A DNA stretch of 58,720 bases from contig CAZTAH010000001.1 in assembly GCA_964611515.1 (NCBI GenBank), positions 1 through 58,720 on the forward strand, read 5' to 3'. This DNA is from an uncultured Candidatus Saccharibacteria bacterium (GTDB lineage Bacteria; Patescibacteriota; Minisyncoccia; Phycocordibacterales; UBA9973). The notes beneath the pieces were generated by a model, which made no database searches, was not told the origin of the DNA, and was given only the letters and a program-made list of their open reading frames with translations. Made by a program: the position numbers and the translations under genes. Shown piece by piece: positions 11,275 to 58,720 of this stretch (the stretch's first letter is position 1; the number at the start of each line of letters is the position of its first letter).

Positions 11275-11410
11275 CCCCACAAACCCATATTTCCATTGCT
11301 TTTTGTGGTTAGATTAAGTTTCTTCAGAATAAAACTGAGGAATTGTCTTTTAGTTAAATAAATATTTACTAATAATAAAAAAGCTAAAGGATGGAAATAT
11401 AGGTGTGGGG
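11275..11410 (+). repeat. MITE-like ~135-bp element, copy 1
   Basis: Termini CCCCACAAACCCATATTTCCAT.. and ..ATGGAAATATAGGTGTGGGG are imperfect inverted repeats. Homologous to 29719, 42804, 57891 and 58253. Confidence 0.8.
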
Positions 11411-28069: not shown

Positions 28070-28093
28070 AAGAGACTTTCTGTTATTATTTCA

Positions 28094-28424
28094 TAAGGGT
28101 TATTTTTGATTTTTAGACTTAAGGTCTCCCGAGTCTTTTTTCCATTTTTACCCTTATATAGTAATGCTTATTCTATACTCAGCTTACACGATCGTACGTT
28201 TTGAGTATAAATAGGCCTTTATAAAATAAGGGTTATTTTTGATTTTTAGACTTAAAGTCTCCCGAGTCTTTTTTCCATTTTTACCCTTATATAGTAATGC
28301 TTATTCTATACTCAGCTTACACGATCGTACGTTTTGAGTATAAATAGGCCTTTATAAAATAAGGGTTATTTTTGATTTTTAGACTTAAAGTCTCCCGAGT
28401 CTTTTTTCCATTTTTACCCTTATA
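28094..28424. repeat. 132/133-bp tandem repeat, ~2.5 copies
   Basis: Unit starts at 28094, 28226 and 28359. One poly-T indel and one A/G difference. Two hairpins per unit. Confidence 0.9.
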
Positions 28425-28445: not shown

Positions 28446-28483
28446 GGTGTAACAAGACGGACGGCCGTCCGTCTTGTTACACC
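28446..28483. repeat. REP-like palindrome, perfect 38-bp copy b
   Basis: GGTGTAACAAGACGGACGGCCGTCCGTCTTGTTACACC. Confidence 0.9.
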
Positions 28484-28485
28484 TA

Positions 28486-28946
28486 GCGAAACAGAGCAAA
28501 TAAATTTGCTATATTTTAACTCACGCTTTTGGTCACAAATAATTCCTCTGTCGTCACATCGGAATTTTCGCGACCCCGGCTCGCGGTTTTGTTTGCTAAC
28601 AAAACATCGCTCCGCCTCACAAAAGCGAAACAGAGCAAATAAATTTGCTATATTTTAACTCACGCTTTTGGTCACAAATAATTCCTCTGTCGTCACATCG
28701 GAATTTTCGCGACCCCGGCTCGCGGTTTTGTTTGCTAACAAAACATCGCTCCGCCTCACAAAAGCGAAATATAGCAAATAAATTTGCTATATTTTAACTC
28801 ACGCTTTTGGTCACAAATAATTCCTCTGTCGTCACATCGGAATTTTCGCGACCCCGGCTCGCGGTTTTGTTTGCTAACAAAACATCGCTCCGCCTCACAA
28901 AAGCGAAATATAGCAAATAAATTTGCTATATTTTAACTCACGCTTT
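28486..28946 (-). repeat. 139-bp tandem array (3.3 copies), Arg-linked tRNA-trailer family
   Basis: Unit starts at 28486, 28625, 28764 and 28903. The minus strand is in the sense of tRNA-Arg. Confidence 0.9.
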
Positions 28947-28965
28947 TGTGCCCTCGGCAGGAATC
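28947..28965 (-). repeat. displaced exact copy of tRNA-Arg 3' end (19 nt)
   Basis: Minus sense GATTCCTGCCGAGGGCACA equals the end of the gene at 29167-29185. Flanked by GTGACC and AAAGCG. Confidence 0.9.
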
Positions 28966-29096
28966 GGTCACTCTCGTGGATATTTTGTTTCTGGTTCGAC
29001 AAGCTCACCATCACAAAATATCTCACTCCATCGGCCCCCACTCGGTCGTTTCCTTTTTCCTAATCTTAATTAGGAAAAAGGGCTTTGCGCGACCTC

Positions 29097-29119
29097 GGTT
29101 CGATTCCCGCGAATTGCAC
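29097..29119 (+). other. orphan tRNA T-loop/3'-end-like fragment
   Basis: GGTTCGATTCCCGCGAATTGCAC. No matching 5' half. Confidence 0.4.
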
Positions 29120-29168
29120 TAAAATTCTAAATCCCAAGAACTCCGTTCTTGGTCTTAAGTATTTTATG

Positions 29169-29607: not shown

Positions 29608-29646
29608 GGGGGTAACAAGGTGGACGGCCGTCCGTCTTGTTACACC
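29608..29646. repeat. REP-like palindrome copy c
   Basis: GGGGGTAACAAGGTGGACGGCCGTCCGTCTTGTTACACC. Confidence 0.85.
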
Positions 29647-29718: not shown

Positions 29719-29853
29719 CCCCACACCTATATTTCCATCCTTTAGCTTTTTTGTTATTAGTAAATATTTATTTAATTAAAAAAAACCTCTCAGTTTTGCT
29801 CTGAAGATTTTTCAACTAACCACAAAAAGCAATGGAAATATTGGTTTGTGGGG
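29719..29853 (-). repeat. MITE-like element, copy 2 (inverted)
   Basis: Runs from CCCCACACCTATATTTCCAT.. to ..ATGGAAATATTGGTTTGTGGGG. Confidence 0.8.
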
Positions 29854-30032
29854 GTGCGGGTAGCGAGACCGCGAGTACGCTTATCGATCCTTACAGGATC
29901 TGTACACTCTTCGTATTATTTGGAATTAAAAATTCCAAATAATATACTCAGAGTCTTCGATTCTCGCACGCAAGCAAAACTATTTGCTTGCTTACCCGCA
30001 TTAAAAAGCTCCACTGGAGATTTTTAATTTAG
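29854..30032 (-). repeat. Gly-linked trailer unit bounded by tRNA-Gly 3'-end copy
   Basis: Minus sense holds a weak hairpin, then TGCGGGTA-[hairpin]-GCGAGAATCG (antisense to the tRNA 3' end). After more hairpins it ends TCTCGCTACCCGCAC (29854-29868), a 15-nt direct copy of the tRNA end. Confidence 0.75.
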
Positions 30033-42777: not shown

Positions 42778-42798
42778 GTGGGAGATGGAAGACTCGAA
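42777..42798 (-). repeat. inverted Trp-like tRNA 3'-end copy
   Basis: Minus sense TTCGAGTCTTCCATCTCCCACA matches the tRNA-Trp end TTCGATTCTTCCATCGCCCGCA at 19 of 22 positions. Confidence 0.7.
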
Positions 42799-42803
42799 CC
42801 GAT

Positions 42804-42938
42804 CCCCACAAACCCATATTTCCATTGCTTTTTGTGGCTAGCTAAAATCTCTTCAGAACAAGAGCTGAAGATCTTTTTTTAATTAAACAAAACTTTCTAA
42901 TAATAAAAAAGCTAGGGGATAGAAATATAGGTGTGGGG
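42804..42938 (+). repeat. MITE-like element, copy 3
   Basis: Runs from CCCCACAAACCCATATTTCCAT.. to ..ATAGAAATATAGGTGTGGGG. Confidence 0.8.
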
Positions 42939-43040: not shown

Positions 43041-43078
43041 GGTGTAACAAGACTGACGGCCGTCAACTTCGTTACCCC
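43041..43078. repeat. REP-like palindrome copy d
   Basis: GGTGTAACAAGACTGACGGCCGTCAACTTCGTTACCCC. Confidence 0.8.
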
Positions 43079-43085
43079 TTAAAAT

Positions 43086-43110
43086 AAAAAATCCTCAATT
43101 GAGGATTTTT
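43086..43110 (-). terminator. rpmG terminator (bidirectional shape)
   Basis: AAAAATCCTC aatt GAGGATTTTT. Confidence 0.8.
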
Positions 43111-43271
43111 TATTTTTTAAGCTCCTTGTGCAGTGTTCTTTTCCTGCACCATTTACAAAACTTATTAAGCTCAATCTTTCTAGTGACGAGTTTTTTGTTC
43201 TTGCTTGTCCAGTAATTAACACGATTACATTCGCTACAAGCTAATTTAAAAAGTCTATCCTGTGATGACAT
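43110..43271 (-). CDS. rpmG: 50S ribosomal protein L33
   Basis: Hand-translated 53 aa: MSSQDRLFKLACSECNRVNYWTSKNKKLVTRKIELNKFCKWCRKRTLHKELKK. CxxC..CxxC L33 pattern. Below the ORF-track length cutoff. Confidence 0.85.
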   Translation of the reverse strand: MSSQDRLFKLACSECNRVNYWTSKNKKLVTRKIELNKFCKWCRKRTLHKELKK

Positions 43272-43400
43272 AATGAAATATACTACTATAATTTAATTAT
43301 AAAAGCAATAATATGATTTTTTAGAGTTATTTGATATACTAGAACTTGAAAATATTTAATTAATGAATAAATAGAAAAATTCGGAGTATATTTTTCATTT

Positions 43401-43482
43401 GCCGGAGTGGCGGAATTGGTATACGCGCGCGACTCAAAATCGCGTCTCGCAAGAGTTGTGGGTTCAAGTCCCACCTCCGGCA
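43401..43482 (+). tRNA. tRNA-Leu(CAA)
   Basis: Acceptor GCCGGAG/CTCCGGC. Anticodon arm CGCGA-CTCAAAA-TCGCG. Long variable arm. T arm GTGGG-TTCAAGT-CCCAC. Confidence 0.9.
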
Positions 43483-44250
43483 CAAAGCGAAGCTTTGGGC
43501 AAAAACTAAGTGATGGGGTTATCACTTGGTTTTTAGGTGGTGGGACTTGAAAGCCGGAGCGCGACGGCGCGAGGCGGGGTCGCGGAAATTTTTAGTAAAA
43601 AATTATCTGTGACCAAGTCCCACCTCCGGCACAAAGCGAAGCTTTGGGCAAAAACTAAGTGATGGGGTTATCACTTGGTTTTTAGGTGGTGGGACTTGAA
43701 AGCCGGAGCGCGACGGCGCGAGGCGGGGTCGCGGAAATTTTTAGTAAAAAATTATCTGTGACCAAGTCCCACCTCCGGCACAAAGCGAAGCTTTGGGCAA
43801 AAACTAAGTGATGGGGTTATCACTTGGTTTTTAGGTGGTGGGACTTGAAAGCCGGAGCGCGACGGCGCGAGGCGGGGTCGCGGACTTTTTCAGCAGAAAA
43901 AGATCTGTGACCAAGTCCCACCTCCGGCACAAAATGAAGTTTTGGGTAAAAACTAAGTGATGGGGTTATCACTTGGTTTTTAGGTGGTGGGACTTGAAAG
44001 CCGGAGCGCGACGGCGCGAGGCGGGGTCGCGGAAATTTTTAGTAAAAAATTATCTGTGACCAAGTCCCACCTCCGGCACAAAATGAAGTTTTGGGTAAAA
44101 ACTAAGTGATGGGGTTATCACTTGGTTTTTAGGTGGTGGGACTTGAAAGCCGGAGCGCGACGGCGCGAGGCGGGGTCGCGGAAATTTTTAGTAAAAAATT
44201 ATCTGTGACCAAGTCCCACCTCCGGCACAAAATGAAGTTTTGGGTAAAAA
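43465..44250 (+). repeat. 149-bp tandem array (5.3 copies), Leu-linked tRNA-trailer family
   Basis: Unit starts at 43465, 43614, 43763, 43912, 44061 and 44210. Each carries CAAGTCCCACCTCCGGCACA, the last 20 nt of the tRNA-Leu gene region. Confidence 0.95.
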
Positions 44251-44263
44251 AGAAACGATATTG

Positions 44264-44851
44264 CTATGTCTGTTGATTAATCTTTTCTACTGCCTTTAGT
44301 ATTTTTTTAAAATCTTTCATTAAGACTTCTCTCATTGCCCCATTGTATAAAGCAGCTGCGGGATGATAGATAGGCATAAAGTAAAGTTTTTCCTCAAATT
44401 CTGGAATTTTCCTAATTAATAATTTCCCATGAACTTCAGATATTTTAGCTTCTGGAAAAAACCTGAGCATGGAATGTTTTCCTAATAGAACTATTAATTT
44501 TGGAGATATTATCTTGAGCTCACCGATAAGCCAATCATTGCAGTCTTCCTTCTCTTTTATTTCTGGGTCCCTGTTTGATGGGGGGCGATATTTAACAATG
44601 TTCGTAATATAAACATCTTTTCTTTCTAGTCCTACAGAATTTAATAATTCTGATAAAAACTTTCCAGCTGAGCCAACAAAAGGAATCCCCTCTTCGTCTT
44701 CTTTTTTTCCAGGGGCTTCTCCTATAAAGACGATTTGACTATTTGGGTTACCGTTTCCAAAAACAGCTTGAGTGGCTGTTTTTTTTAAACTACACTCACA
44801 GTTTTCTTTCCAATAACTATTAAGCTCGCCTAGTTTTTGCTTTTTGCTCAT
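44264..44851 (-). CDS. uracil-DNA glycosylase, family 4
   Basis: Has GEAPGKKEDEEGIPFVGSAG..L and C-terminal HPAA. Confidence 0.85.
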   Translation of the reverse strand: MSKKQKLGELNSYWKENCECSLKKTATQAVFGNGNPNSQIVFIGEAPGKKEDEEGIPFVGSAGKFLSELLNSVGLERKDVYITNIVKYRPPSNRDPEIKEKEDCNDWLIGELKIISPKLIVLLGKHSMLRFFPEAKISEVHGKLLIRKIPEFEEKLYFMPIYHPAAALYNGAMREVLMKDFKKILKAVEKINQQT

Positions 44852-48715: not shown

Positions 48716-48779
48716 TAAAGAGAGTCAGGAGAAAACCGAAAATCCTAAAAAGAGTAGGTGCTATTTAAAAAAACAAGAG

Positions 48780-49013: not shown

Positions 49014-49070
49014 CATTAGGAGAAAGCCGAAAATCCTTAAAAGAGTAGGCAAAATTAAAAATTTAAAAAA

Positions 49071-57745: not shown

Positions 57746-57890
57746 ATAATTTCATATTACTCTAAAAGATACTTTTTTACAATTAGAAGATTCCTAGGCT
57801 TGTCCTGGGTTCATTTTTTTAACCTCAGCCTAGGACCGTCCTAGACTCACTAGAAACAAGCAAGGGGCCTGTCTGCGCAGGCAGGCCTGT

Positions 57891-58024
57891 CCCTAACACC
57901 AATGTTTTCATTCTAATGCTTTTTTGTTATTAGAAAGTTTAATTTAATTAAAAGACAATCTCTCACTCTTGTTCTGAAGAGATTTTAGTTGAATACAAAA
58001 AGCAATGGAAATATTGGTGTGGGG
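57891..58024 (-). repeat. MITE-like element, copy 4 (inverted, left terminus degenerate)
   Basis: Preceded by a GC palindrome at 57864-57890. The 57864-58024 block is repeated at 58226-58385. Confidence 0.75.
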
Positions 58025-58059
58025 GTAACCAAGTGGACGGCCGTCCGTTTGGTTACCCC
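58021..58059. repeat. REP-like palindrome copy e
   Basis: GGGGGTAACCAAGTGGACGGCCGTCCGTTTGGTTACCCC. Confidence 0.85.
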
Positions 58060-58100
58060 TTAGAACTTTTTTTGATTTTTATAGTTTTAGGTATTTGTTT

Positions 58101-58130
58101 GAGCCGCTTCCCAGACTTGAACTGGGGACC
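58101..58130 (-). pseudogene. tRNA-like 3' half (intact T arm + acceptor 3' strand) of a tRNA not present in the window
   Basis: Minus sense GGTC-CCCAG-TTCAAGT-CTGGG-AAGCGGC-TCA. No matching 5' acceptor strand nearby. Confidence 0.5.
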
Positions 58131-58252
58131 TTCGCTTTAGTTATGCGCCTGTTCCCACTTCGCCAAGGCTACGCGGGACAAGCTCGCACACCCACTTTTC
58201 TCAATTCTTAGAGGTGGGTTTCGTGGGGGCCTGCCTGCGCAGGCGGGCCTGT

Positions 58253-58385
58253 CCCCACACCAATGTTTTCATTCTTTTGCTTTTTTGTTATTAGAAAGTT
58301 TAATTTAATTAAAAAATAATCTCTCACTCTTGCTCTGAAGAGATTTTAGTTGAATACAAAAAGCTATGGAAATATTGGTGTGGGG
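58253..58385 (-). repeat. MITE-like element, copy 5 (inverted)
   Basis: Runs from CCCCACACCAATGTTTTCAT.. to ..ATGGAAATATTGGTGTGGGG. Confidence 0.8.
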
Positions 58386-58720
58386 ATTGACATAGCCTAG
58401 ATTGATTACTTTTCGTGAGCCGCTTCCCAGACTTAAGCTAGGATTCTTTGCTTTAGTTATGCGCCTGTCCGCACACCTACTTTTCTTGATTCTTAAAAGT
58501 GGGTGTGGGGATTGACATAACCTAGATAAGTTACAATACTTGAGCCGCTTCCCAGACTTAAGCTAGGATTCTTTGCTTTAGTTATGCGCCTGTCCGCACA
58601 CCTACTTTTCTTGATTCTTAAAAGTGGGTGTGGGGATTGACATAGCCTAGATTGATTACTTTTCGTGAGCCGCTTCCCAGACTTAAGCTAGGATTCTTTG
58701 CTTTAGTTATGCTTTGACAT
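58382..58720 (-). repeat. 125-bp tandem array (at least 2.7 copies) running into the contig end
   Basis: Unit starts at 58382, 58507 and 58632. Each unit carries CTTAAGTCTGGGAAGCGGCTCA (minus sense) and the hairpin CACACCCACTTTT..AAAAGTAGGTGTG. Confidence 0.9.

What the first reader, a model, noticed from the sequence alone, without database searches (positions are those of the whole stretch)
43465..44250. 149-bp tandem array that begins inside the T-loop of tRNA-Leu(CAA) and regenerates the tRNA 3' end in every unit
Seen: a 149-bp unit starts at C56 of the tRNA-Leu T-loop and repeats head-to-tail 5.3 times at an exact 149-bp period. Every unit ends ..ATCTGTGACC and is followed by CAAGTCCCACCTCCGGCACA. 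That 20-mer is identical to the last 20 nt of the tRNA gene region: T-loop 3' half, T stem, acceptor 3' strand, discriminator and CA. Units are much more GC-rich than the surrounding DNA and contain four hairpins. These are AAAGC/GCTTT, a 14-bp AAAAACTAAGTGAT/ATCACTTGGTTTTT, CGCGA/TCGCG with a G-rich loop, and AATTTTT/AAAAATT. Each unit also holds GGTGGGACTTG, the exact reverse complement of the T-arm 3' half CAAGTCCCACC. In unit 3 the last hairpin differs at 7 positions, and 6 of these form three double-compensatory pair swaps (A-T to C-G, A-T to T-A, T-A to C-G). Units 4-6 change AAAGC/GCTTT to AAAAT/GTTTT (G-C to A-T, C-G to T-G). Inference: the hairpins are under structural selection. The array looks like either tandemly integrated or amplified attP-like mini-elements of a T-loop-targeting recombinase, or a processed structured RNA co-transcribed with the tRNA. 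I know of no described family with this architecture.
Basis: partly seen in the sequence, partly recalled or inferred. Interest (0 to 1): 0.85.

Follow-up and report, generated by a model that had tools for sequence, protein, structure and literature searches.

The report
Tandem tRNA-end-regenerating structured RNA mini-elements
The 149-bp array is five tandem copies of a tiny protein-less element, built around a conserved RNA three-way junction, that sits inside the end of a tRNA gene and carries a spare copy of that end; relatives occur throughout the Patescibacteria behind tRNA, tmRNA and even the topA gene, and no described family matches it.

Summary
In detail: 5 full units plus a 41-nt partial unit of 149 bp start at T-loop C56 of tRNA-Leu(CAA).

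The unit is not specific to this genome. Its 3' half is a ~60-110-nt module found in at least 120 Patescibacteria genome stretches and absent from Rfam and from 2.9 million viral contigs. A covariance model gives very strong covariation and two near-invariant G.U pairs, so the structure is strand-specific.

Family-wide, the module ends in GUGAC and is followed by a copy of the upstream gene's 3' part, starting at a C:
- T-loop C56 in 31 of 79 tRNA-linked cases.
- The tRNA 3' terminus in others.
- The tmRNA T-loop.
- The last ~20 codons of topA.

A 7-13-nt antisense stretch before the module pairs with that copy. The two topA copies differ almost only synonymously (43 vs 9 codons), so one copy was imported, or both stay in use through excision or splicing.

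Best reading: an integrating, non-autonomous, guide-bearing RNA-structured element, tandemly amplified here. A related metagenome contig shows one unit, carrying the unit-3 allele. The enzyme and the mobile intermediate are unknown.

Main rival: a host tRNA-linked small RNA family.

No described family matches; interest is high.

The parts
43265..43292 (+). Sigma-70-like promoter (ATGACA-16-TATAAT, 11 of 12) about 110 nt upstream of tRNA-Leu. It is the only promoter-like site that could drive the tRNA and read-through into the array.
43401..43483 (+). tRNA-Leu(CAA). Its 3' part from C56 (43465) onward is also the first 'X' copy of the array.
43465..44250 (+). Tandem array with an exact 149-bp period. 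Units: 43465-43613, 43614-43762, 43763-43911 (allele B), 43912-44060, 44061-44209, and a partial unit 44210-44250.
43465..43484 (+). X segment: T-loop C56 through acceptor 3' strand, discriminator and CA. It recurs at +149n: 43614, 43763, 43912, 44061, 44210.
43484..43534 (+). Trailer: small hairpin a (AAAGC GAA GCTTT; AAAAT/GTTTT in units 4-6) and hairpin b, a 14-bp A-tract/U-tract terminator-like stem (43501-43534). Repeats at +149n.
43539..43549 (+). Guide-like antisense GGTGGGACTTG. It pairs with X (CAAGTCCCACC) to form stem P0, and is followed by the junction AAA (43550-43552). Repeats at +149n.
43553..43613 (+). Conserved three-way-junction module: P1a GCC/GGC, internal loop GGA/GA, P1b CGCG-ACGG-CGCG, junction GGG, and P2 GUCGCGGA-AAUUUUU AGUA AAAAAUU-A-UCUGUGAC. 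Further copies at 43702-43762, 43851-43911 (allele B), 44000-44060, 44149-44209.
   Evidence: (92.9 bits x4, 90.3 bits for unit 3)
44210..44250 (+). Terminal partial unit: X plus the start of the trailer. It is either the displaced native tRNA 3' end and trailer, or the last repeat boundary. Unique DNA and the UDG gene (44264-44851, minus strand) follow.
28485..28948 (-). Second array of the same family: 139 bp x 3.3, with modules at 28524-28627, 28663-28766 and 28802-28905 on the minus strand. The junction is at the tRNA-Arg trailer, with P0 = CAAAAGCG/CGCUUUUG.
   Evidence: 47.1 bits each

Best explanation
**What it is.** The array is a tandem amplification of a small non-coding element from an unannotated family found across the Patescibacteria.

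**Parts of one element, 5' to 3':**
1. A copy (X) of the 3' part of the host gene, beginning at a C. Here it runs from tRNA-Leu T-loop C56 to the discriminator plus CA.
2. Trailer hairpins.
3. A 7-13-nt stretch antisense to the start of X.
4. A conserved RNA three-way-junction module that ends in GUGAC.

The element lies inside the 3' end of its target. The target keeps working with the element-proximal copy, and a second copy of X follows GUGAC.

**Shown here:**
- The module is a real, strand-specific, covarying structure.
- The junction GUGAC|C and the antisense/X pairing hold for many tRNAs, for tmRNA and for the protein gene topA.
- The two topA copies diverged under purifying selection.

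**Inferred:**
- The element integrates, and probably excises, at N|C. The site is chosen by base pairing of the antisense stretch.
- The fold puts the first base (C) and the last base (GUGAC) of a unit side by side. The likely intermediate is therefore a unit-length single-stranded circle, RNA or ssDNA, cut and rejoined there.
- The cutting and joining would be done by a trans-acting host enzyme or by the RNA itself.
- The five units arose by repeated integration or unit-length duplication plus unequal exchange, giving a mosaic of two alleles.
For: **Family.**
All but two are Patescibacteria; the exceptions are a chance match and a likely mis-binned contig.

**Structure.**
- In 120 homologues, 90.1% of cells are paired against 34-46% for slid controls.
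- 29 of 33 pairs show double changes, and 0 of 500 shuffles reach the observed values.
- Two G.U pairs are present in 120/120 and 107/120 sequences.
- The MFE fold of one unit reproduces the structure.

**Junction.**
- In 31 of 79 tRNA-linked modules the 3' flank restarts exactly at C56 of the upstream tRNA, with 6-26 nt exact matches. A second class restarts at C72.
- The same arrangement occurs downstream of tmRNA and topA.

**Import or dual use.**
- The topA copies differ at 43 synonymous against 9 non-synonymous codons. That is 83%, against 13.5% in neutral simulation (0 of 20000).
- Displaced copies range from intact to frameshifted or truncated.

**Guide.**
- P0 covaries with very different targets: 9 of 10 pairs show double changes.
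- The preferred register has a 3-nt spacer.

**This locus.**
- Related contig L133 shows one unit, carrying the unit-3 allele.
- No ORF fits in a unit, and no recombinase lies nearby.
Against: - No enzyme, excised form, empty site or presence/absence polymorphism was observed.
- Copies within a genome are not generally more alike than copies between genomes (0.68 vs 0.66). Several copies match best to the orthologous position in another genome. The family therefore looks old and mostly vertically inherited.
- Many modules sit between two tRNA genes of one operon, as a functional processed RNA would.
- There are no hits in viral contigs, so no carrier is known.
- Codon usage could not show which topA copy is foreign.
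- L133 comes from a short-read assembly and might be a collapsed array.
- The circular intermediate is inferred from geometry only.
Confidence: 0.55

Rival explanations
1. A host-beneficial small RNA gene family. The three-way-junction RNA is co-transcribed with tRNA or tmRNA and released by tRNA-processing enzymes. The antisense/X stem merely closes the RNA or protects tRNA folding. Flanking copies and arrays come from local duplication and unequal crossing-over, not from mobility.
For: - Deep conservation with near-invariant bases across Patescibacteria classes.
- Orthologous-position nearest neighbours across genomes.
- Frequent position between two same-strand tRNAs.
- 86 of 189 tRNA/tmRNA genes in the sampled loci carry one.
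- No transposase nearby and no viral copies.
- The P0-forming part of the displaced copy is retained even when the rest has decayed.
Against: - It does not explain why the join is always GUGAC|C at C56 in unrelated tRNAs.
- It does not explain why the same module interrupts the coding end of topA with a second, synonymously diverged copy of about 20 codons.
- The window's array mixes two alleles that differ at 7 positions, which slippage alone cannot create.
Confidence: 0.25
2. A new small self-cleaving (and self-ligating) ribozyme in tRNA trailers. Like theta ribozymes, it processes transcripts at GUGAC|C. Arrays would then be comparable to multimeric ribozyme-bearing satellites.
For: - Size and three-way-junction topology, with the conserved bases around the junction.
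- The join lies exactly at the junction.
- There is precedent for ribozymes 3' of tRNAs (PMC10879173).
- Unit ends abut in the fold.
Against: - No match to any Rfam ribozyme, even at E <= 10.
- Most of the conserved bases lie in a helix (P2), which is more typical of protein or guide scaffolds.
- There are no biochemical data.
- It does not by itself explain the DNA-level duplication of target 3' ends.
Confidence: 0.1
3. Scars of ordinary integrase-mediated islands or prophages in tRNA genes: attL/attR remnants left after deletion. The array would be an amplification of such a scar.
For: - Direct repeats running from the T-loop to the 3' end of a tRNA or tmRNA are what integrase-borne islands typically leave (own knowledge).
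- L092 shows a 5-kb cargo island at the same tRNA-Ala.
Against: - The interior is a conserved, covarying RNA module in at least 120 genomes, not random remnants.
- No integrase lies nearby in 120 loci or in the window.
- There are no viral copies.
- Element size is uniform at about 110-230 nt.
Confidence: 0.05
4. Assembly artefact: the true locus has one unit and the array is a mis-assembly.
For: - The only other assembly that spans the locus (L133) shows one unit.
- Short-read contigs break at the array.
Against: - Three distinct unit types occur in a fixed order.
- Four separate high-identity long-period arrays occur in one window, which suggests a long-read assembly.
- The Logan contig ends at a branch point between unit types.
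- L133 is a different lineage, about 85% identical.
Confidence: 0.05

Closest known systems
Integrase-borne genomic islands and prophages in tRNA/tmRNA genes (P4-type, T-loop sublocation; own knowledge)
   Same: They insert within the 3' part of tRNA or tmRNA genes and carry a replacement 3' end, leaving a direct repeat from the T-loop to the 3' end. Integration into the 3' ends of protein genes, with regeneration, is also known.
   Different: Those elements are kilobases long and encode a tyrosine integrase with arm and core sites. This element is 110-230 nt, encodes nothing, and has a conserved covarying RNA fold plus an antisense stretch to the target.
IS110/IS1111 elements with bridge or seek RNAs (own knowledge)
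   Same: The target is chosen by base pairing of an element-encoded structured RNA. There is a circular intermediate whose junction matters, and no long target duplication.
   Different: IS110 elements encode a DEDD/serine recombinase, their RNA has two internal binding loops, and they do not carry a copy of the target. None of these applies here.
IS200/IS605 single-strand transposons and their miniature derivatives (own knowledge)
   Same: Strand-specific hairpins are recognised as single strands. Cleavage sites are read by base pairing with an internal guide next to a hairpin. There is a circular single-stranded junction, and non-autonomous derivatives exist.
   Different: Those insert 3' of a fixed tetra- or pentanucleotide, need a Y1 HUH transposase, and do not carry target sequence. 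Here no fixed 5' motif and no TnpA were seen.
Theta (HDV-like) ribozymes 3' of phage tRNAs (PMC10879173)
   Same: A small structured RNA immediately downstream of tRNA genes, linked to tRNA 3' processing.
   Different: Theta ribozymes have a nested double-pseudoknot HDV fold, cleave at their own 5' end, occur in phages and leave no target duplication. Here the RNA is a plain three-way junction, there is no Rfam HDV match, and the element is chromosomal and specific to Patescibacteria.
Retrozymes and viroid-like satellite repeats (own knowledge)
   Same: Tandem unit-length repeats of a structured non-coding RNA whose unit ends can be joined into a circle. They are non-autonomous.
   Different: Those carry hammerhead or hairpin ribozymes, are eukaryotic or viral, and do not regenerate host gene ends.
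Cis-mobilizable elements and MITE-like non-autonomous elements (own knowledge)
   Same: They encode no protein, are mobilised in trans, and accumulate at the same sites, sometimes in tandem.
   Different: MITEs have terminal inverted repeats and short target duplications. CIMEs are att-flanked remnants without a conserved RNA fold.

Membership tests
tRNA-targeting tyrosine-integrase islands | Direct repeat of the tRNA 3' part flanking the element | tested here: met
   A 20-41-nt repeat occurs at every unit. Family-wide repeats start at C56.
tRNA-targeting tyrosine-integrase islands | Integrase gene inside the element or next to the tRNA | tested here: not met
   The unit is 149 bp with no ORF. 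Pfam on the window ORFs finds no recombinase (Pfam labels). No such family is enriched in 120 loci.
IS110/IS1111 (bridge/seek RNA) | DEDD plus serine-domain recombinase encoded by the element | tested here: not met
   No ORF in the element and no such Pfam hit in the window.
IS110/IS1111 (bridge/seek RNA) | Non-coding RNA with two internal loops that pair with target and donor | tested here: not met
   The consensus has one 3x2 internal loop, G(G/C)A/GA, and pairing to the target lies in a flanking stem.
IS200/IS605 miniature elements | Insertion 3' of a fixed tetra- or pentanucleotide, with no target copy carried | tested here: not met
   Bases 5' of the join differ between targets: GGTT|C, G|C, GGCA|C. 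The element carries X.
IS200/IS605 miniature elements | Y1 HUH transposase available in the genome | not testable with these tools
   Only a 58.7-kb window is held, and it contains none.
MITE | Terminal inverted repeats and a short fixed-length target duplication | tested here: not met
   The unit ends, CAAGTCC... and ...CTGTGAC, are not inverted repeats. The flanking repeats vary from 5 to more than 60 nt.
Known self-cleaving ribozymes (hammerhead, HDV/theta, twister, twister-sister, pistol, hatchet, hairpin) | Match to the family covariance model or core | tested here: not met
   Rfam at the gathering threshold and at E <= 10 gives only tRNA and spurious hits. The junction strands (AAA, GGG, 0 nt) do not fit the hammerhead core.
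Group II intron | Six-domain catalytic RNA of more than 400 nt with EBS/IBS pairing and usually a reverse transcriptase | tested here: not met
   The module is 60-110 nt and there is no RT. P2 has a CGC with a central G.U and a 3'-strand bulge that recalls domain V, but the spacing differs (3 bp against 5 bp, by my reading of the sequence).
Type III antitoxin / CRISPR / TIGR-like RNA arrays | Short (about 30-45 nt) repeats, with a spacer or an adjacent toxin or effector gene | tested here: not met
   The period is 149 bp, there are no spacers, and the neighbours are UDG and rpmG.
New family proposed here (Patescibacteria GUGAC module) | Covariance-model match with P1a/P1b/P2 and the GUGAC|C end | tested here: met
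   All five units score 90-93 bits with model R1, E about 1e-22.
New family proposed here (Patescibacteria GUGAC module) | Upstream antisense stretch pairing with the sequence that follows GUGAC, which copies the upstream gene's 3' part | tested here: met
   An 11-bp P0 forms in every unit, and X equals the tRNA-Leu 3' end from C56.

The most novel reading that the evidence does not exclude
The three-way-junction module is itself the active machine, or the guide scaffold for a host RNA- or ssDNA-processing enzyme. It is a protein-less, programmable element that recognises a target by its 7-13-nt antisense stretch. It cuts and rejoins at GUGAC|C, exists as a unit-length single-stranded circle, and homes into universally conserved sites (tRNA and tmRNA T-loops, tRNA 3' ends, the topA zinc-ribbon codons) while carrying a spare gene end. 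That would be a new class of guide-directed mobile RNA or ribozyme in bacteria.
Probability: 0.2. Interest if true: 0.95.

Novelty: categorically new. Interest (0 to 1): 0.86.

Why it matters
- **A missing RNA family.** The module is abundant, deeply conserved and structured, yet absent from Rfam. In the sampled loci it follows almost half of the tRNA genes, in a superphylum that makes up a large share of bacterial diversity.
- **An unusual combination of features.** A conserved scaffold, a variable antisense stretch that tracks the target, and a built-in spare copy of the target's 3' end are not known together in any described mobile element or RNA. The combination suggests a programmable, guide-based way of choosing insertion or processing sites without an element-encoded protein.
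- **If the element is mobile.** It shows how a 110-230-nt sequence can persist and spread in very small genomes by being harmless to essential genes (tRNA, tmRNA, topA).
- **If the RNA is catalytic or guides a host enzyme.** It would be a candidate new ribozyme or guide class and a possible tool.
- **Practical consequences.** It explains recurrent assembly breaks at tRNA genes in Patescibacteria MAGs. It also warns that partial tRNA and topA fragments there are not annotation noise.

Tried and rejected
1. **GCCGGAG as the complement of the tRNA-Leu acceptor strand, and the unit as a tRNA-like cloverleaf or pseudoknot.** Rejected. G-N-C-GGAG is a conserved part of the module in all genomes, and the arm sizes do not fit a tRNA.
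2. **Known ribozyme or known RNA family.** Rfam at gathering and at E <= 10 finds nothing. The hammerhead and HDV topologies do not fit.
3. **Canonical kink-turn in P1.** The 3x2 loop G(G/C)A/GA is not a standard K-turn. Left open.
4. **Resemblance of P2 to group II domain V** (CGC with a G.U, plus a 3' bulge). The spacing differs. Not pursued.
5. **Neighbouring protein partner.** Clustering 672 ORFs near 121 modules gave only housekeeping families. The L092 island has no Pfam recombinase.
6. **Viral carrier.** 0 hits in IMG/VR.
7. **Fast-transposing repeat.** Within-genome identity is not higher than between-genome identity.
8. **Other near-identical arrays in MAGs.** None found with TRF. This is probably a short-read limitation.
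9. **Strain survey through the L33 gene.** The protein is not on record (wrong coordinates).
10. **Codon usage to decide which topA copy is foreign.** Inconclusive.
11. **Literature.** Six topical searches and one sequence-string search found no description (papers probed in 76-79). HMP2_2419 of PMC8040213 is a 126-bp motif from unclassifiable contigs near aaRS genes. It could not be compared because no sequence is held.
Full report
**1. The observation**

TRF reports a 149-bp period, 5.3 copies, 97% matches and no indels at 43465-44250. tRNA-Leu(CAA) lies at 43401-43483. Position 43465 is C56 of its T-loop.

- The 20-mer CAAGTCCCACCTCCGGCACA restarts every unit.
- The internal GGTGGGACTTG is its partial reverse complement.
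- Unit 3 differs at seven positions in the last hairpin: three double compensatory swaps plus one loop base.
- Units 4-6 share AAAAT/GTTTT plus one C->T.

Units are 53-58% GC in a 33% GC window. One unit folds at -73.1 kcal/mol against -41 +/- 4.1 for shuffles.

**2. The surroundings**

The window's ORFs are ordinary housekeeping genes of a small AT-rich bacterium:
- LeuRS, YchF, MiaA, UDG and a VirD4-like ATPase.
- MraZ/MraW, PBPs, MurJ, LepA and MreB/C.
- TGT and several aminoacyl-tRNA synthetases.

No recombinase, transposase or reverse transcriptase is among them.

The window holds three more long-period arrays. Four of its eight tRNAs are followed by a stretch antisense to their own T-loop region. 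Three of those four also have a displaced direct copy of their 3' end.

The 139-bp array next to tRNA-Arg shares a 23-nt core and the end ATYTGTGACC with the Leu units.

**3. The unit belongs to a widespread family**

The shared pattern GGGGTCGCGRAAATT-N(10-40)-TGTGACC was scanned over one genome for each of 185,579 species. All but two are Patescibacteria: Paceibacteria, Saccharibacteria, and the Adler-, Kaiser-, Lloyd-, Nomura-, Zambryskii-, Moranii-, Harrison-, Niyogi-, Yonath- and Woesebacteria. The two exceptions are a chance match and a likely mis-binned contig.

The sequences show a module of 58-123 nt:
- G-N-C, then G(G/C)A.
- A variable hairpin.
- GA, then G-N'-C, then GGG.
- GUCGCG-R-A-AAUU ... 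AAUU-A-U-Y-UGUGAC, followed by C.

GCCGGAG in the window's unit is therefore part of the module. It is not a complement of the tRNA-Leu acceptor strand.

**4. The structure is real and strand-specific**

I built a covariance model from nine equal-length members, using a structure derived by eye. The structure has four stems:
- P0, formed by the flanks.
- P1a and P1b.
- P2, with one bulged A.

In the window the model finds the five Leu units (92.9 bits four times, and 90.3 bits for unit 3) and three units of the 139-bp array (47 bits each). It finds no other convincing match (next best 16 bits, E = 0.05). In 100 fetched loci it finds 120 copies.

Results on that alignment:
- 90.1% of cells are standard pairs, against 34-46% when partners are slid by 1-3 columns.
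- 29 of 33 pairs change on both sides.
- The covariation score is 0.441 against 0.142 for shuffles (0 of 500 reach it).
- The middle pair of P1a is CG 44, AU 35, GC 25, UA 7.
- The R-Y pair of P2 is GC 70, AU 39, CG 6.
- Two G.U pairs are present in 120/120 and 107/120 sequences.

The alignment was fitted to the model, which inflates the 'paired' figure. It does not inflate the multiplicity of pair types.

Near-invariant G.U pairs would be A.C mismatches on the other strand. The structure therefore acts as RNA, or as a single strand of this sense.

RNAfold on one unit gives the same structure independently.

**5. Context rule**

Of 121 pattern hits, 79 lie 49-400 nt downstream of a same-strand tRNA, covering about 30 isoacceptors. 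Many lie between two tRNAs of one operon.

In the module-selected loci, 86 of 189 tRNA/tmRNA genes are followed by a module.

Among the 79 tRNA-linked hits, the sequence after GUGAC relates to the upstream tRNA in two ways:
- In 31 cases it restarts exactly at C56 of the upstream tRNA, with exact matches of 6-26 nt.
- A second class restarts at C72 or the discriminator, with matches of 5-9 nt.

Modules also follow tmRNA genes in L047, L068, L077, L082 and L100. L068 has a 20-nt exact copy of the tmRNA T-loop-to-end.

The stretch just 5' of the module pairs with the sequence after GUGAC. The preferred register leaves a 3-nt spacer and starts at the final C. This stem, P0, is 73% paired, with double changes at 9 of 10 positions.

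When the T-loop reads CGAG, the antisense stretch is often CGAG too. That gives tandem G.A pairs instead of Watson-Crick pairs (my reading of the sequences).

**6. The topA cases**

Eight loci have the module just after the stop codon of an ORF. In L106 I confirmed the ORF as topoisomerase I: Toprim, Topoisom_bac and Zn_ribbon_Top1.

In seven of the eight loci, the sequence after GUGAC|C encodes a second copy of topA's C-terminal codons. In L042 it covers the last ~20 codons (KTIPERCSDKLCPNHNPHK); the shared stretch ranges from 6 to more than 15 residues. In L132 only 4 residues match.

The in-gene and displaced copies were compared in five loci:
- They differ at 43 synonymous and 9 non-synonymous codons.
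- That is 83% synonymous, against 13.5% in a neutral simulation (0 of 20,000).
- The differences include Arg CGC/AGA and Ser TCA/AGC switches.
- These five loci are not fully independent events; L057 and L072 share both copy types.

Displaced copies are intact in some genomes and frameshifted, truncated or missing a zinc ligand in others. In L095 the two copies are identical over 53 nt.

Both copies therefore evolved as coding sequence. Two readings fit:
- One copy came in from another lineage together with the element.
- Both copies remain in use because the element is removed some of the time, at the DNA or RNA level.

Either way this is not a passive local duplication. Codon usage could not tell which copy is foreign.

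**7. This locus in a relative**

A 32-mer specific to the window's unit finds one metagenome contig, L133. Its UDG, LTD and VirD4-like genes are about 85% identical to the window's.

L133 has tRNA-Leu(CAA), one unit, the same 41-nt partial repeat, and then UDG. Its P2 hairpin is the unit-3 allele.

The window's array is thus a mosaic:
- Window: (tRNA-X-trailerGC)(A-X-GC)(A-X-GC)(B-X-AT)(A-X-AT)(A-X-AT partial).
- L133: (tRNA-X-GC)(B-X-GC).

Alleles A and B differ at seven positions, so slippage of B alone cannot make the array. Possible sources are additional integration, exchange with another copy, or recombination with foreign DNA.

Caveat: L133 may be a collapsed short-read assembly.

Short-read contigs from several samples stop about 50 nt into the array, at a branch point between unit types.

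**8. How it most likely works**

*Shown:*
- A conserved single-strand structure.
- A fixed join, GUGAC|C.
- A variable antisense stretch matched to whatever follows the join, which copies the upstream gene's 3' part.
- Occurrence at tRNA, tmRNA and topA.
- Selection on both topA copies.

*Inferred:*
- The element integrates at N|C, at sites chosen by base pairing. It stays harmless by supplying the gene's 3' end.
- In the fold the unit's first base pairs at the foot of P0 and its last base ends P2 at the same junction. A cut-and-join at that point would convert linear units to circles and back.
- A unit-length single-stranded circle, RNA or ssDNA, is therefore the most economical intermediate. 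It would also explain unit-register tandem arrays.

Who catalyses this is unknown. No protein family is enriched nearby and no viral carrier exists.

*Against a purely selfish, active element:*
- Copies are not homogenised within genomes.
- Several copies are clearly orthologous between genomes.
- Many sit in tRNA operon spacers.

The family is therefore old and may have a host function. The rival 'processed tRNA-linked sRNA' remains serious and is not mutually exclusive.

The P0-forming part of the displaced copy is retained even where the rest has decayed. This fits selection for folding of the junction. It would also keep the antisense stretch from invading the tRNA's own T-arm.

**9. Comparison with known systems**

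The 3'-end regeneration and the T-loop sublocation recall integrase-borne islands. There is, however, no integrase, no arms, and a 110-230-nt size.

Guide-based site choice and a circle junction recall IS110 bridge RNAs and IS200/IS605. Their defining proteins and RNA or DNA features were tested and not met.

Theta ribozymes (PMC10879173) show that small structured RNAs can sit 3' of tRNAs. Their fold and setting differ.

Rfam 15 has no model for the module, and the held literature has no description. One catalogue entry, HMP2_2419 in PMC8040213, could not be checked.

**10. Verdict**

The array is one conspicuous instance of a large, undescribed family of structured, guide-bearing mini-elements that regenerate gene 3' ends. 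The family appears specific to Patescibacteria.

The mechanism is only partly resolved. Confidence by claim:
- Anatomy: high.
- Integration, or excisability: moderate.
- Circular intermediate, and any catalytic role of the RNA: low.

Noticed in passing
window 28979-29167 (minus strand), with the repeat at 28959-28978: About 190-200 nt between tRNA-Arg(CCT) and a displaced copy of its 3' end (CGATTCCTGCCGAGGGCACA). The stretch contains GCGGGAATCGAACC, antisense to the T-loop region, and ends in GAGAGTGAC|C56. It shares the GGUCGC...GUGACC base of P2 but has a large insert, and model R1 does not detect it. It is probably a divergent relative of the module.
   Followed up: partly
window 29855-30031 (minus strand): tRNA-Gly(CCC) is followed by an element of about 160 nt. 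It has GCGGGTA (antisense to the acceptor 3' strand) and GCGAGAATCGAA (antisense to the T-loop) and ends in GCGTACTCGCG before a displaced copy, TCTCGCTACCCGCAC. The same end motif (AAGCGTACTCGCG| followed by a tRNA or tmRNA fragment) occurs in L085 and L077, so this is a second junction type or family.
   Followed up: partly
window 11277-11410, 29719-29851, 42806-42938, 58253-58385, about 57890-58024: Five copies of a MITE-like element of about 134 bp with imperfect terminal inverted repeats (CCCCACACCAATATTTCCAT ... ATGGAAATATAGGTGTGGGG). Each lies downstream of a tRNA gene or tRNA fragment.
   Followed up: partly
window 42780-42800: TGGGAGATGGAAGACTCGAACC, an imperfect reverse complement of a tRNA-Trp-like 3' end, lies 48 nt downstream of tRNA-Trp. 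No displaced direct copy follows it.
   Followed up: no
window 58377-58712, and 58100-58150 (minus-strand reading): A 125-bp x 2.7 array runs to the window end. Each unit carries, on the minus strand, a tRNA 3'-half-like piece (GGCGCATAACTAAAGC...AGTCTGGGAAGCGGCTCA). The parent gene probably lies beyond the window.
   Followed up: no
window 28093-28424: A 133-bp x 2.5 array (99% identity) of AT-rich units with no match to model R1. Its nature is unknown.
   Followed up: no
window 28456-28473 and 29619-29636 (regex hits); similar hairpins read by eye near 43043-43078 and 58020-58060: A recurrent GC-rich perfect palindrome of the type GGTGTAACAAGACGGACGGCCGTCCGTCTTGTTACACC lies next to the arrays and the MITE-like copies. 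A related small palindrome (CCTGCCTACCGGCAGGCAGG) is inserted inside displaced tRNA fragments in L029, L030 and L034.
   Followed up: no
window 48726-48760 and 49017-49051: Two Rfam DUF805b hits (52 and 44.7 bits) downstream of tRNA-Ala(TGC).
   Followed up: no
L021, L042, L057, L072, L093, L095, L106, L132: The module interrupts the last ~20 codons of topA, with a displaced second copy of those codons. The displaced copy is intact in L042 and L093, frameshifted in L021, truncated in L072 and L106, and lacks a zinc ligand in L057.
   Followed up: yes
L092 2615-7560: A 5-kb island lies between tRNA-Ala and a remnant tRNA end plus module. It encodes an unknown 297-aa protein, ThiF-family, arginase-family and GNAT proteins. 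No Pfam recombinase was found.
   Followed up: partly
L033 4086-4493; also L046, L047, L053, L073, L108, L014, L070, L099: Two or three divergent modules lie in tandem in other genomes. These look like old arrays, or tandem copies that have been maintained.
   Followed up: partly
L060 2086-2263 and L023 4156-4358: Other long-period repeats (83 bp x 2.1 and 96 bp x 2.1) contain tRNA T-loop-to-end or D-arm fragments but no R1 module.
   Followed up: no
window tRNA genes (for example 43483-43485, 29166-29168): None of the eight tRNA genes encodes CCA. The discriminator is followed by C, and by CA where the flank was read.
   Followed up: no
window 43110-43271 (minus strand): A small gene that looks like ribosomal protein L33 (53 aa, identified by eye) lies between the MITE-like copy and the tRNA-Leu promoter. 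It is not on record in the protein-position index.
   Followed up: partly
L090 5621-5752: An Rfam LOOT RNA hit (51.9 bits) lies in a Lloydbacteria locus that also carries modules.
   Followed up: no
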